From Escherichia phage ECML-1: 64,000 bases of DNA. Below, one piece after another: positions 8,730 through 19,277 of the stretch; position 1 is the first letter of the stretch, and each line of letters starts with the position of its first letter. The notes beneath the pieces were generated by a model. That model searched no databases. It was not told the origin of the DNA and was given only the letters and a program-made list of their open reading frames with translations. The stretch is taken from the sequence record OL631478.1; one strand, written 5' to 3'. A program made the position numbers and the translations under genes.

Positions 8730-10082
8730 ATGTGGAATCCAATTGTTAATGTAGATATTACATTGAACACCGCAGGAACTACAAGAGAAGGTTTTGGTTT
8801 GCCACTATTCTTAGCTTCAACAGATAATTTTGAAGAAAGAGTACGTGGTTACACTTCCTTAACTGAAGTTGCTGAAGATTTCGATGAGAATACTGCTGCA
8901 TATAAGGCTGCTAAACAACTTTGGAGTCAGACTCCTAAAGTAACTCAGCTTTATATTGGTAGACGTGCTATGCAGTACACTGTATCAATTCCTAATGCCG
9001 TTGCTGAAAGTACAGACTACTCAATTACTGTAGCTGCTGGCGGTGGAATTTCTCAACCATATCAGTATACAGCGCAAGCTGAAGACACTGCTGAAAACGT
9101 GTTGCAACAGTTTAAAACACAGATTGAAGCTGACCCAACAATCAAAGATAAGGTTTCTGTGAATGTAACTGGTAGCAATGGCTCTGCCACAATGATTATT
9201 ACCAAAGCTGGTGATAATGACTTTGTGAAAGTAACAACTACAGCACAGACTGTGTATATTGCAAGTACAACTGCCGATACAGCATCAACTGCTCTGGCAG
9301 CTATCGAAGCTTACTCTACTGACTGGTATTTCATTGCAGCAGAAGACAGAACTCAACAGTTTGTCTTAGCAATGGCTTCTGAGATTCAGGCTCGCAAGAA
9401 AATCTTCTTTACAGCTAACTCCGATGTAACAGCCCTGCAAGGTACAGAATTAGCCAGTGCAAATGATGTTCCAGCACAGCTTGCTAAGAATATGTACACT
9501 CGTACAGTTTGCTTGTGGCATCACGCAGCAGCAGAAGACTATCCAGAGATGGCATACATTGCTTATGGTGCTCCATATGATGCAGGTTCAATTGCTTGGG
9601 GTAATGCTCAGCTAACTGGTGTAGCAGCTTCTCTACAACCATCTAATCAGAGACCTCTGACAAGTATTCAGAAGTCTGCTTTAGATGTACGTCACTGTAA
9701 CTTTATTGACCTTGATGGTGGTGTTCCAGTGGTTCGTAGAGGGATTACTTCTGGTGGGGAATGGATTGATATCGTCCGTGGCGTTGACTGGTTAGAATCA
9801 GACCTGAAAACTTCTCTGAGAGACTTGCTAATTAACCAGAAGGGTGGTAAGATTACTTATGATGATACTGGTATTACCCGTATTCGTCAAGTCATTGAAA
9901 CCTCTCTACAAAGAGCAGTCAACAGAAACTTCCTGTCATCTTACACAGTTAATGTTCCTAAAGCCTCTCAAGTTGCTTTAGCAGACAAGAAAGCACGTAT
10001 CCTGAAAGACGTTACCTTCGCAGGTATCTTAGCAGGTGCTATCTTGGATGTTGACTTGAAAGGTACAGTGGCTTACGAATAA
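8730..10082 (+). CDS. Tail sheath protein
   Basis: 450 aa ORF directly upstream of a ~150 aa tube-sized gene, chaperone pair and tape measure (classic myovirus order). Confidence 0.55.
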   Translation: MWNPIVNVDITLNTAGTTREGFGLPLFLASTDNFEERVRGYTSLTEVAEDFDENTAAYKAAKQLWSQTPKVTQLYIGRRAMQYTVSIPNAVAESTDYSITVAAGGGISQPYQYTAQAEDTAENVLQQFKTQIEADPTIKDKVSVNVTGSNGSATMIITKAGDNDFVKVTTTAQTVYIASTTADTASTALAAIEAYSTDWYFIAAEDRTQQFVLAMASEIQARKKIFFTANSDVTALQGTELASANDVPAQLAKNMYTRTVCLWHHAAAEDYPEMAYIAYGAPYDAGSIAWGNAQLTGVAASLQPSNQRPLTSIQKSALDVRHCNFIDLDGGVPVVRRGITSGGEWIDIVRGVDWLESDLKTSLRDLLINQKGGKITYDDTGITRIRQVIETSLQRAVNRNFLSSYTVNVPKASQVALADKKARILKDVTFAGILAGAILDVDLKGTVAYE

Positions 10083-10097
10083 TAGAGGTAAATTGGA

Positions 10098-10544
10098 ATG
10101 GCTATGTATCAGCAATATTCCCCTAAAGACGTTGTATGTAGCTGGAATGGTATTGCCATTGAAGGCTTTGCCCCAGACTCATTCTTGCGTCTACAGAGAA
10201 CATCACCACTTGTGACACCAGTTGTTGGTGCAGGTGGTCAGGTTGCTCTGACAAGAAATGCAGACAAGACAGGTACTATTGAGATTGAGCTAATGCAGAC
10301 TTCTCTCTCTAACCAGATGCTTTCTGCAATTCAAGCTAAACAAGACAATATGGAACTTGAAGAAGATATCTCTTCTAACTTCGTAATCTACGACCCATCA
10401 GGCTCTGTTCTGGCAACTGGTATTAATGCTTGGTTGCAGGAATTACCGCAGATTGAACTTGGTCGTGACCAGAACTCTAAAACTTGGATTTTTGGTTGTG
10501 AGAAGCTAGACTACACTTCTACAATTCCAGCGTCAAGTGTTTAA
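10098..10544 (+). CDS. Tail tube protein
   Basis: 148 aa ORF after sheath, followed by strong intrinsic terminator. Confidence 0.5.
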   Translation: MAMYQQYSPKDVVCSWNGIAIEGFAPDSFLRLQRTSPLVTPVVGAGGQVALTRNADKTGTIEIELMQTSLSNQMLSAIQAKQDNMELEEDISSNFVIYDPSGSVLATGINAWLQELPQIELGRDQNSKTWIFGCEKLDYTSTIPASSV

Positions 10545-10556
10545 TAAATCCTATAA

Positions 10557-10592
10557 GGGGGAGACTTTAAAAGGTCTTCCCCTTTTTTGTTT
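10557..10592 (+). terminator. Rho-independent terminator after tail tube gene
   Basis: GGGGAGAC / GTCTTCCCC stem (one bulge) followed by TTTTTTGTTTCTTTT. Confidence 0.65.
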
Positions 10593-10617
10593 CTTTTAAA
10601 AGTATTAAGGAATCACA

Positions 10618-11016
10618 ATGAAAACAGAATCTAGAGTAATTAATGGTAAGAAAGTAAATATCGTTCTGCTTGGGGCAAGAGATGGTATTAAGATGTCTAT
10701 GAAGTTGGGTAAAATTGTTGTTCCAACTTTTGCACAGATGCTGTCAAGTCTGACTGACAAGGGTAAGAAAGAAGCTCCAATGGTTCCATTTAAAGAACTT
10801 GTTGAAGCTTGTTTTGACAGAATTGAAGAAATTAACCTTGAAGAGATGGCTACCCTGTTATTTCAAGGGGCAACTGTTGATGACTTCCCACTTAATATTG
10901 ATACATACTTCCAAGCAAACTATGGTGAATTTATTGATTACTTAGCATTTGCGCTGGAGGCAAACTTCGGAAGTTTTTTCGAAGCAAGCATTTTCAAAAG
11001 CCTAACTTCTCAGTAA
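10618..11016 (+). CDS. Tail assembly chaperone (G-like)
   Basis: 132 aa ORF between tube and tape measure; contains T_TTT_TTC slippery heptamer near its 3' end. Confidence 0.5.
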   Translation: MKTESRVINGKKVNIVLLGARDGIKMSMKLGKIVVPTFAQMLSSLTDKGKKEAPMVPFKELVEACFDRIEEINLEEMATLLFQGATVDDFPLNIDTYFQANYGEFIDYLAFALEANFGSFFEASIFKSLTSQ

Positions 11017-11018
11017 AC

Positions 11019-11257
11019 ATGGGTAACACTCTACAGACACCACTAACTGATGCTGCTGTAGAGGCAACCTATGAAGAAGCAGACGAGATGAAATTTGTGC
11101 TTGCTATTTATGGTATGGAAGGGTGTAAAGAAACACTTGACCAACTCTTTGCTATGACATTCTCTGATTTATTATCATTGAGACAATTTCTTGAAATTCA
11201 GAGGTCGTATAAAGAGGAAATTGCTTACAACGAACTTAGAAGAGCAGGAAAAATGTA

Positions 11258-11258
<1 letters not shown>
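11019..11258 (+). CDS. Tail assembly chaperone extension (T-like, probably expressed as -1 frameshift fusion)
   Basis: 79 aa ORF in -1 frame relative to upstream chaperone; -1 frame is open from slippery site at 10974-10980 into this ORF. Confidence 0.45.

Positions 11259-19277
<8,019 letters not shown>

What the first reader, a model, noticed from the sequence alone, without database searches (positions are those of the whole stretch)
10969..11021. Candidate programmed -1 ribosomal frameshift in the tail assembly chaperone pair
Near the 3' end of chaperone gene 10618..11016 lies an in-register slippery heptamer T_TTT_TTC (10974-10980). The -1 frame is open from that point (cga agc aag cat ttt caa aag cct aac ttc tca gta aac atg...) straight into ORF 11019..11258, so a -1 slip would produce a G-T type fusion chaperone, the conserved arrangement upstream of tape-measure genes.
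Basis: partly seen in the sequence, partly recalled or inferred. Interest (0 to 1): 0.45.

Follow-up and report, generated by a model that had tools for sequence, protein, structure and literature searches.

The report
Tail chaperone frameshift site, already known
This is the standard programmed -1 ribosomal frameshift that lets a Felix O1-like phage make a short and a long version of its tail assembly chaperone; the sequence evidence is strong, but the same site is already annotated and described in close relatives, so it is ordinary.

Summary
The window is a Felixounavirus, 99% identical to Escherichia phage radambza. ORF 10618..11016 is a tail assembly chaperone (Pfam PF21822). It lies between the tail tube gene and the tape measure gene. 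T_TTT_TTC (10974-10980) is the only in-register slippery heptamer in the 79-nt stretch where the -1 frame is open, and a -1 slip there gives a 213-aa fusion ending at 11258.

One heptamer in such an overlap is not rare (P about 0.08). The comparative evidence is what decides it:
- All 79 motif-bearing relatives from IMG/VR have T_TTT_TTY at the nucleotide level, and 11 GenBank loci representing about eight lineages have TTTTTTC.
- The -1 frame always stays open for 76-123 codons.
- Start codons in the T frame are often missing for 35-71 codons.
- Third-position diversity falls from 0.32 to 0.05 after the heptamer.

There is no 3' stimulatory structure here. A GGAGG 13 nt upstream is a plausible Shine-Dalgarno-like stimulator.

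The same frameshift is already annotated in GenBank (phages Meda, Moogle, Mijalis, Michonne) and was described for Andersonviridae in 2025. I found no experimental proof.

Verdict: real, interpretation supported, already known, low interest.

The parts
10618..11016 (+). G-type tail assembly chaperone ORF (short form, 132 aa), product of standard decoding
   Evidence: PF21822 Phage_TAC_15, E 1.7e-19, 71 bits against a cut-off of 22. phrog_1613 tail assembly chaperone, E 2.9e-48. Lies between the tube and tape measure genes.
10956..10960 (+). Internal Shine-Dalgarno-like GGAGG, 13 nt 5' of the heptamer; candidate 5' stimulator (inferred)
   Evidence: Read directly from the sequence. GGAGG or GAGG sits at this spacing in 51 of 57 unique contexts. 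It needs the minor Glu codon GAG (96 GAG against 280 GAA in the window). GGAGG is rare in the window, 26 against 56 expected. The reported stimulatory spacing for -1 shifts is 9-14 nt (PMC5009743).
10974..10980 (+). Slippery heptamer T_TTT_TTC in X_XXY_YYZ register (P-site UUU, A-site UUC, both Phe)
   Evidence: Conserved as TTTTTTC or TTTTTTT in 79 of 79 IMG/VR loci and in all 11 GenBank loci examined. U_UU.U_UU.Y is among the efficient E. coli heptamers (PMC4066793).
10938..11016 (+). Overlap zone where both the G frame and the -1 (T) frame are open (dual coding)
   Evidence: Last -1 frame stop is TGA at 10935. Nucleotide diversity is lowest at 10978-11007 (0.032, against 0.09-0.30 elsewhere). 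Third-position diversity is 0.05 here against 0.32 in the G-only part.
10980..11258 (+). -1 frame extension (T segment, 92 codons plus stop). With 10618-10980 it gives the 213-aa long chaperone. It contains the usually annotated 79-aa ORF 11019..11258.
   Evidence: phrog_4963 tail assembly chaperone, E 2.8e-55. The homologous fusions are deposited as frameshift products. There is no Shine-Dalgarno sequence before ATG 11019. That ATG is ATA in L018, and the equivalent start is absent in other genera.
11258..13486 (+). Tape measure protein gene; its ATG overlaps the stop of the T frame (TAATG)
   Evidence: phrog_4036, E 0, and PF20155 TMP_3. Sequence read.
10098..10544 (+). Tail tube gene immediately upstream (context)
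   Evidence: PF11681 KPP10_Orf10 and phrog_280. The homologue Sf14 gp40 is listed as the tail tube in the Sf14 structural study (PMC11821841).
8730..10082 (+). Tail sheath gene (context)
   Evidence: phrog_205 tail sheath, E 3e-123.

Best explanation
This is a programmed -1 ribosomal frameshift in the tail assembly chaperone gene of a Felix O1-like myophage.

Most ribosomes translate 10618..11016 and release the 132-aa short chaperone. A minority slip when UUU (10975-77) is in the P site and UUC (10978-80) is in the A site. Both tRNA-Phe move back one base and re-pair with UUU/UUU (10974-79). Decoding then continues at CGA (10980) in the -1 frame to TAA 11256-58. The product is a 213-aa protein with the chaperone's first 121 residues and a new 92-residue C-terminal T domain.

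By analogy with lambda G/GT, the shared N-terminal part would coat the tape measure protein and the T domain would recruit the tube protein. That sets a fixed low ratio of long to short form for tail assembly.

Shown here: the site, its register, the frame architecture, and their conservation and dual-coding signature. Inferred: that the slip is ribosomal, its efficiency, the stimulatory role of GGAGG 10956-10960 (13 nt upstream), and the roles of the two proteins.
For: - Register and open -1 frame are confirmed.
- It is the only one of 66 in-register heptamers in the window followed by a long -1 ORF: 92 codons against at most 28.
- The upstream ORF is PF21822 / phrog_1613 and the downstream one is phrog_4963. 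Gene order is sheath, tube, G, T, tape measure.
- TTTTTTC sits in the same register, with the -1 frame open up to the tape measure gene, in Felixouna-, Susp-, Moogle- and Kolesnikvirus, in phage Arno162, and in the Vequintavirinae phages CR3, phiTE and Av-05, which are 26-30% identical.
- In 79 of 79 IMG/VR loci the preceding Ser/Cys codon ends in T and the first Phe codon is TTT, even in GC-rich genomes. The -1 frame then runs 76-123 codons. Window codon usage would predict about 0.3 per independent lineage.
- The first possible start codon in the T frame lies 35-71 codons in for many lineages, and ATG 11019 is ATA in L018.
- Third-position diversity drops from 0.317 to 0.05 between the heptamer and the G stop.
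- My predicted fusions equal the deposited frameshift products AXY86324.1 and YP_009145710.1 (joined CDS).
- U_UU.U_UU.Y is in the most efficient heptamer class in E. coli (PMC4066793).
- The SD-like sequence is at 13 nt, within the reported 9-14 nt range (PMC5009743).
- The T-frame product was detected by mass spectrometry in particles of Mooglevirus Sf14 (PMC11821841).
Against: - I found no experimental demonstration for any Felix O1-like phage: no junction peptide and no reporter assay.
- There is no 3' stimulatory structure within 60-80 nt (z +0.8 to +1.1), so efficiency may be low.
- Phe-Phe is invariant in the protein, so part of the heptamer's conservation comes from the amino acids.
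- In this genus an ATG lies 2 nt after the G stop, so some free T protein made by termination-reinitiation is possible.
- The Sf14 mass spectrometry lists the T ORF product but not the G ORF product. That is odd if the detected species were the fusion.
- Sequence alone cannot separate ribosomal from transcriptional slippage.
Confidence: 0.88

Rival explanations
1. Transcriptional slippage. RNA polymerase adds one extra U in the T6 run in a fraction of transcripts, and standard translation of those mRNAs yields the same 213-aa fusion.
For: - An extra base in the run produces exactly the fusion frame. GenBank record CL1 has T7 at this place and a single fused 213-aa ORF, which shows that polymerases, or sequencing, do slip here.
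- A few relatives carry T7-T8 runs.
- The scan flags a weak terminator-like hairpin at 10954-10970 just before the T run.
Against: - Bacterial transcriptional slippage is described for runs of about 9 A or T (PMC5009743). Here the run is T6 in 72 of 79 loci.
- The upstream hairpin is not conserved; alifold finds no consensus structure over 44 unique contexts.
- Distant relatives carry classic 3' hairpins 5-7 nt after the heptamer, which are stimulators of ribosomal frameshifting.
Confidence: 0.05
2. There is no recoding. The 79-aa ORF 11019..11258 is an independent gene, translated from its own ATG by termination-reinitiation after the G stop (TAA-AC-ATG), and the heptamer is only the spelling of a conserved Phe-Phe.
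For: - ATG 11019 lies 2 nt after the G stop.
- Most GenBank records annotate two separate genes.
- Sf14 particle mass spectrometry lists the T ORF product but not the G ORF product (PMC11821841).
Against: - No Shine-Dalgarno sequence precedes ATG 11019.
- The ATG is not conserved. It is ATA in L018 and shifted 4-5 codons in Susp- and Mooglevirus. The first start codon is 55 codons in for Kolesnikvirus and 35-71 codons in for others.
- The -1 frame is nevertheless always open back to the heptamer.
- The -1 peptide RSKHFQKP upstream of the ATG is conserved between Felixounavirus and Kolesnikvirus.
- Synonymous variation is suppressed upstream of the ATG.
- Codon choice at the heptamer is invariant beyond what the amino acids require.
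Confidence: 0.04
3. Both routes operate. The fusion is made by -1 frameshifting, and in Felixounavirus some free 79-aa T protein is also made from ATG 11019.
For: - The ATG is present 2 nt after the stop in nearly all Felixounavirus loci.
- Sf14 mass spectrometry lists T but not G.
Against: - The start codon is dispensable in L018 and absent in other genera.
- No ribosome binding site is present.
- The hairpin 11029-11063, whose outer pairs reach 11021-24, may hinder initiation there.
Confidence: 0.25

Closest known systems
Annotated tape measure chaperone frameshift of Felix O1-like phages: Salmonella phage Meda (Meda_064/065) and Citrobacter phages Moogle, Mijalis, Michonne and Mordin
   Same: Same genes, same heptamer TTTTTTC, same -1 join. 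My predicted Meda and Mijalis/Moogle fusions match the deposited proteins exactly. The Moogle and Mijalis genome announcements mention the frameshift (PMC4319497, PMC5543628).
   Different: Nothing of substance. The window's fusion differs from Meda's by 2 residues, so that exact sequence is not in the protein collection. Most other Felixounavirus records still annotate two separate genes.
Conserved GTTTTT frameshift site of the TAC-N/TAC-NC locus in Vandenendeviridae (Pakpunavirus Adele) and Andersonviridae (Viruses 2025, PMC12846349)
   Same: That paper reports an invariant GTTTTT near the 3' end of TAC-N, and a -1 frame that stays open across 56 unique alleles from 159 Vandenendeviridae genomes. 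It also finds the same conserved GTTTTT motif near the 3' end of TAC-N in 231 Andersonviridae phages, the family that contains Felixounavirus. This is the conclusion reached independently here.
   Different: That study is also purely comparative. As far as the passages I read show, it does not mention the upstream GGAGG or the lineage-specific 3' hairpins.
Phage lambda G/GT (Levin 1993; Xu, Hendrix and Duda 2004, 2013, 2014; summarised in PMC5009743)
   Same: Two overlapping ORFs just upstream of the tape measure gene. A low-level -1 shift near the end of the first ORF gives a long form whose extra domain binds the tube protein. No strong 3' structure is required.
   Different: Lambda is a siphovirus and uses G_GGA_AAG (from my own knowledge). 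The proteins belong to different Pfam families. Here the heptamer is U_UUU_UUC with an SD-like sequence upstream. Function and ratio are untested here.
Phage P2 E/E+E'
   Same: A contractile-tail phage with gene order sheath, tube, chaperone pair, tape measure, and a U-rich heptamer (T_TTT_TTG).
   Different: The last base is G rather than C. I did not test protein similarity to P2 gpE.
E. coli dnaX -1 frameshift
   Same: An internal Shine-Dalgarno-like sequence 9-14 nt 5' of a homopolymeric heptamer acts as a stimulator (PMC5009743). Here GGAGG lies 13 nt upstream.
   Different: dnaX uses A_AAA_AAG plus a strong 3' hairpin, shifts at about 50%, and gives a shorter product. Here there is no 3' hairpin, the product is longer, and efficiency is presumably low.

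Membership tests
Tail assembly chaperone G/GT-type programmed frameshift (Xu, Hendrix and Duda 2004) | Two adjacent ORFs between the major tail (tube) gene and the tape measure gene | tested here: met
   Tube 10098..10544, G 10618..11016, T 11019..11258, tape measure 11258..13486.
Tail assembly chaperone G/GT-type programmed frameshift (Xu, Hendrix and Duda 2004) | The second ORF is open in the -1 (or +1) frame back into the 3' end of the first ORF | tested here: met
   The -1 frame is open from 10938, a 79-nt overlap. The +1 frame is closed after 6 codons.
Tail assembly chaperone G/GT-type programmed frameshift (Xu, Hendrix and Duda 2004) | Canonical slippery sequence in the correct register inside the overlap | tested here: met
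   T_TTT_TTC at 10974-10980, starting at codon position 3. It is the only such heptamer in the overlap.
Tail assembly chaperone G/GT-type programmed frameshift (Xu, Hendrix and Duda 2004) | Slip site and frame arrangement conserved among diverged relatives | tested here: met
   All 11 GenBank loci examined (about eight lineages) and 79 of 79 IMG/VR loci, 57 unique contexts, down to 23-30% identity. Synonymous-site suppression is seen in the overlap.
Tail assembly chaperone G/GT-type programmed frameshift (Xu, Hendrix and Duda 2004) | The upstream ORF belongs to a tail assembly chaperone protein family | tested here: met
   PF21822 Phage_TAC_15 at 71 bits (cut-off 22). phrog_1613 at E 2.9e-48.
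Tail assembly chaperone G/GT-type programmed frameshift (Xu, Hendrix and Duda 2004) | The second ORF lacks its own conserved translation start | tested here: met
   No Shine-Dalgarno sequence before ATG 11019. The ATG is ATA in L018. The first T-frame start codon is 35-71 codons in for other lineages.
Tail assembly chaperone G/GT-type programmed frameshift (Xu, Hendrix and Duda 2004) | A fusion protein is actually made at a low fixed ratio, and both forms are required for tail assembly | not testable with these tools
   Indirect literature only. The T-frame product was detected in Sf14 particles (PMC11821841). Neither ORF product is in the Felix O1 virion list (PMC3185647). No junction peptide has been reported.
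-1 PRF with a 3' stimulatory hairpin or pseudoknot | Stable structure starting 5-9 nt 3' of the heptamer | tested here: not met
   Folds of 10981-11060 and 10981-11030 give z +0.80 and +0.94, and the 60-nt fold gives z +1.1. Rfam finds nothing. Such hairpins are present in GC-rich distant relatives.
dnaX/IS-type -1 PRF with a 5' Shine-Dalgarno-like stimulator | SD-like sequence 9-14 nt 5' of the shift site | tested here: met
   GGAGG at 10956-10960 with a 13-nt spacer. Present in 51 of 57 contexts, using the minor codon GAG. A functional effect is not testable here.
Programmed transcriptional slippage | Long homopolymeric A/T run (about 9) or a shorter run with a conserved nascent-RNA hairpin | tested here: not met
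   The run is T6. The upstream hairpin is not conserved. Criterion taken from PMC5009743.

The most novel reading that the evidence does not exclude
Around an invariant U6Y slip site, different lineages of this chaperone family use different stimulators. The enterobacterial Felix O1-like phages may rely only on an internal Shine-Dalgarno-like GGAGG 13 nt upstream, while GC-rich relatives use a 3' hairpin. In addition, the T-domain polypeptide may stay associated with the particle, as suggested by Sf14 mass spectrometry listing the T ORF product but not the G ORF product. That would differ from lambda GT.
Probability: 0.3. Interest if true: 0.3.

Novelty: already known. Interest (0 to 1): 0.14.

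Why it matters
The main value is for annotation. Most of the roughly 300 Felixounavirus-like records list two separate small genes, some of them named "head closure protein" or "hypothetical protein". The biology is one gene with a short product and a long, frameshifted product. Correct annotation matters for phage engineering and for reading virion or infected-cell proteomics. The family also offers a clean natural series for studying how stimulators of -1 frameshifting are exchanged: the slip site is invariant while the flanking signals vary. It does not change what is understood about tail assembly or recoding.

Tried and rejected
Folds of 10981-11060, 10981-11030 and 10974-11100 do not differ from shuffles (z +0.8, +0.9, -1.2). 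The only notable hairpin, 11029-11063, starts 48 nt after the heptamer, too far for a classical stimulator.
- **Rfam scan of 10500-11400.** It returned only three sub-threshold chance matches, none at the site.
- **Terminator-like hairpin at 10954-10970 before the T run, as a possible driver of transcriptional slippage.** It is not conserved in 44 unique contexts.
- **+1 frameshift alternative.** The +1 frame closes after 6 codons.
- **Other slip sites in G.** The only other heptamer, TTTAAAG at 10789, is out of register and lies upstream of -1 frame stops.
- **Phage-encoded tRNA-Phe in the window.** No tRNA genes are present.
- **Structure prediction of the fusion.** The tool turned it away because the fusion is not a plain translation of the window.
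- **PDB sequence search with a 7-sequence profile.** The only hit was non-significant (5ir0_A, E 0.37).
- **Literature search for experimental proof in Felix O1-like phages.** None was found. The rV5 and Felix O1 genome papers do not mention a frameshift.
- **Sf14 supplementary files.** They hold no peptide-level data for gp41 or gp42.

Full report
**What the window is.** A 1.6-kb stretch around the finding is 99.2% identical to Escherichia phage radambza. It matches 296 phage records, almost all of them Felix O1-like myophages. These belong to the genus Felixounavirus, subfamily Ounavirinae, family Andersonviridae.

The local gene order is:
- tail sheath, 8730..10082 (phrog_205);
- tail tube, 10098..10544 (PF11681/phrog_280);
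- ORF 10618..11016;
- ORF 11019..11258;
- tape measure protein, 11258..13486 (phrog_4036, PF20155).

ORF 10618..11016 is a tail assembly chaperone. It matches PF21822 Phage_TAC_15 at 71 bits against a cut-off of 22, and phrog_1613 at E 2.9e-48. ORF 11019..11258 matches phrog_4963, also annotated as a tail assembly chaperone.

**Check of the observation.**
- The chaperone ORF ends ...GGA AGT TTT TTC GAA GCA ... CAG TAA. TTTTTTC (10974-10980) therefore starts on the third base of a codon, which is the X_XXY_YYZ register.
- The -1 frame has its last stop at 10935-37. It is open from 10938 through ATG 11019 to TAA 11256-58.
- That stop shares its last A with the tape measure ATG (TAATG).
- A -1 slip at the heptamer gives a 213-aa protein, ...EANFGSFF|RSKHFQKPNFSVNMGNTLQ...
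- The +1 frame closes after 6 codons.

**Is it more than chance?** Taken alone, only weakly. In-register heptamers occur 66 times in 19,763 codons of the window's genes, so a 26-codon overlap has about an 8% chance of holding one.

Several things set this one apart.
- It is the only one of the 66 followed by a long -1 ORF: 92 codons against at most 28.
- TTTTTTC is depleted in the window (11 sites against 26.7 expected).
- The seven other Phe-Phe dipeptides in the structural genes avoid the T_TTT_TTY spelling.

**Comparative evidence.** A tblastn search with the predicted fusion found 326 phage records. I examined 11 loci representing about eight lineages: Felixounavirus, Suspvirus, an unclassified relative, Mooglevirus, two Kolesnikvirus species, Pectobacterium phage Arno162, and the Vequintavirinae phages CR3, phiTE and Av-05 (26-30% identity). 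All 11 loci had TTTTTTC in the same register. In all of them the -1 frame was open from just upstream of the heptamer to the tape measure gene.

A scan of IMG/VR gave 80 more loci, 79 of which carry the peptide motif. That scan was ascertained on the peptide motif E-x-N-[FY]-[GS]-[SC]-F-F, so the presence of Phe-Phe is by construction. The codon spelling is not.
- In 79 of 79 loci (57 unique contexts) the Ser/Cys codon ends in T and the first Phe codon is TTT. That gives TTTTTTC 72 times and TTTTTTT 7 times, even in GC-rich genomes.
- The -1 frame then runs 76-123 codons.
- The window's own codon usage is 52% T-ending Ser codons and 61% TTT. That predicts about 0.3 per independent lineage.

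**Independent translation of T is unlikely.**
- The first possible start codon in the T frame is 55 codons in for Kolesnikvirus and 35-71 codons in for other lineages.
- It is shifted by 4-5 codons in Susp- and Mooglevirus.
- One Felixounavirus contig (L018) has ATA where the window has ATG 11019.
- No Shine-Dalgarno sequence precedes ATG 11019.

**Dual-coding signature.** I aligned 36 unique Ounavirinae G-T sequences. Third-codon-position diversity is 0.317 (93% of sites variable) in the G-only part. It falls to 0.05 (29% variable) between the heptamer and the G stop, and returns to 0.239 in the T-only part. The 30-nt window with the lowest diversity is 10978-11007. The -1 peptide RSKHFQKP is conserved from Felixounavirus to Kolesnikvirus, whose fusions are about 43% identical overall.

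**Stimulators.**
- Folds of 10981-11060 and 10981-11030 do not beat shuffles (z +0.80 and +0.94).
- Rfam finds nothing.
- The scan flags a weak hairpin just upstream (10954-10970), but it is not conserved.

What is present is GGAGG at 10956-10960, 13 nt before the heptamer.
- GGAGG or GAGG sits at this place in 51 of 57 unique contexts.
- It requires GAG, which is only 26% of Glu codons in this phage.
- GGAGG is rare in the window (26 against 56 expected).
- The stimulatory spacing reported for -1 shifts is 9-14 nt (PMC5009743).

This remains an inference, because the motif also encodes the conserved Leu-Glu-Ala. By contrast, GC-rich distant relatives carry strong hairpins 5-7 nt after the heptamer. 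One example is a conserved 9-bp stem, CCGCGAGCG/CGCUCGCGG, with z between -2 and -5.

The heptamer itself is favourable. In E. coli, U_UU.Y is the second most shift-prone A-site motif. U_UU.U_UU.C and U_UU.U_UU.U shift at more than 0.1% without any stimulator and fall in the most efficient class, H_HH.U_UU.Y (PMC4066793).

**Mechanism.** The best reading is a low-efficiency ribosomal -1 shift with tRNA-Phe in both the P and A sites. It produces a short form and a long form of the chaperone, as in lambda G/GT (PMC5009743). That the short form coats the tape measure protein and the T domain recruits the tube protein is taken from lambda and was not tested here.

**Rivals.**
- Transcriptional slippage would give the same protein. 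It is disfavoured by the short T6 run and by the ribosomal-type hairpins in relatives.
- Independent initiation of T is contradicted by the comparative data above.
- A minor free T product in this genus cannot be excluded.

**What is already known.** The frameshift is annotated as a joined CDS in Salmonella phage Meda, a Felixounavirus, and in Citrobacter phage Mijalis. The fusions I predicted from their DNA at this heptamer are exactly AXY86324.1 and ARB06563.1/YP_009145710.1, and Michonne has one too.

The Moogle (2015) and Mijalis (2017) announcements mention the frameshift. [quoted passage not shown]

I found no experimental demonstration.
- Felix O1 virion proteomics lists the sheath, tube and tape measure products but neither chaperone ORF.
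- Mass spectrometry of Sf14 particles lists the T-ORF product gp42 but not the G-ORF product gp41. This shows the T frame is translated but does not settle how.

**Verdict.** It is already known at the level of annotation and comparative analysis, so interest is low. The small additions made here are the upstream GGAGG, the absence of a 3' structure in this genus against its presence in distant relatives, and natural variants (the ATA start in L018 and the T7 allele in CL1) that bear on the model.

Noticed in passing
window 11029-11063: A stable hairpin, CUCUACAG...CUGUAGAG (-16.6 kcal/mol, z -2.8), lies 48 nt after the heptamer and 12 nt after the G stop. A hairpin occurs at the homologous place but with different base pairs in Suspvirus (z -3.1) and Mooglevirus (z -1.9), and none in Kolesnikvirus. 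It is too far away to be a classical frameshift stimulator. Its outer pairs (11021-24) reach into the UG of ATG 11019. Its role is unknown.
   Followed up: partly
L004 957-964 (Escherichia phage CL1, OK040806.1): The record has T7 instead of T6 at the slip site. G and T are therefore fused in the DNA and annotated as one 213-aa chaperone. This is either a homopolymer sequencing error or a natural GT-only allele. If real, the phage would lack the short form.
   Followed up: partly
L018 about 1900 (IMGVR_UViG_3300045988_004167): A Felixounavirus contig has ATA where the window has ATG 11019. The next in-frame start codon is 36 codons after the slip site. This is a natural loss of the presumed start of the T ORF.
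   Followed up: yes
L071-L091, L057, L062, L090 (IMG/VR relatives), 5-7 nt after the heptamer: GC-rich distant relatives carry strong hairpins right after TTTTTTC, for example a conserved 9-bp stem CCGCGAGCG/CGCUCGCGG (z -2 to -5). The Felix O1-like phages have none. The stimulators appear to be lineage-specific.
   Followed up: partly
window 10555-10592: A strong intrinsic terminator (13-bp stem followed by a T run) lies between the tail tube gene and the chaperone gene. It is annotated as a terminator in Meda and Mijalis. The chaperone and tape measure genes therefore lie downstream of a terminator that must be partly read through, or they have their own promoter.
   Followed up: no
whole window: Both TTTTTTC (11 against 26.7 expected) and GGAGG (26 against 56 expected) are markedly under-represented. 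This is consistent with avoidance of slippery runs and of internal Shine-Dalgarno-like sequences.
   Followed up: no
L014 1011-1238 (Shigella phage Sf14, FDI99_gp115): Published particle mass spectrometry lists the T-ORF product (gp42) as detected and the G-ORF product (gp41) as not detected (PMC11821841). This is unexpected if only the fusion carries T, and unlike lambda, where neither chaperone is in virions. Felix O1 virion proteomics lists neither (PMC3185647).
   Followed up: partly
GenBank records under: Annotation of this gene pair is inconsistent across records. Names include two hypothetical proteins, two chaperones, 'Hc1 head closure protein' and 'Tc1 tail completion protein'. In some Kolesnikvirus records the T segment is not annotated at all.
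   Followed up: no
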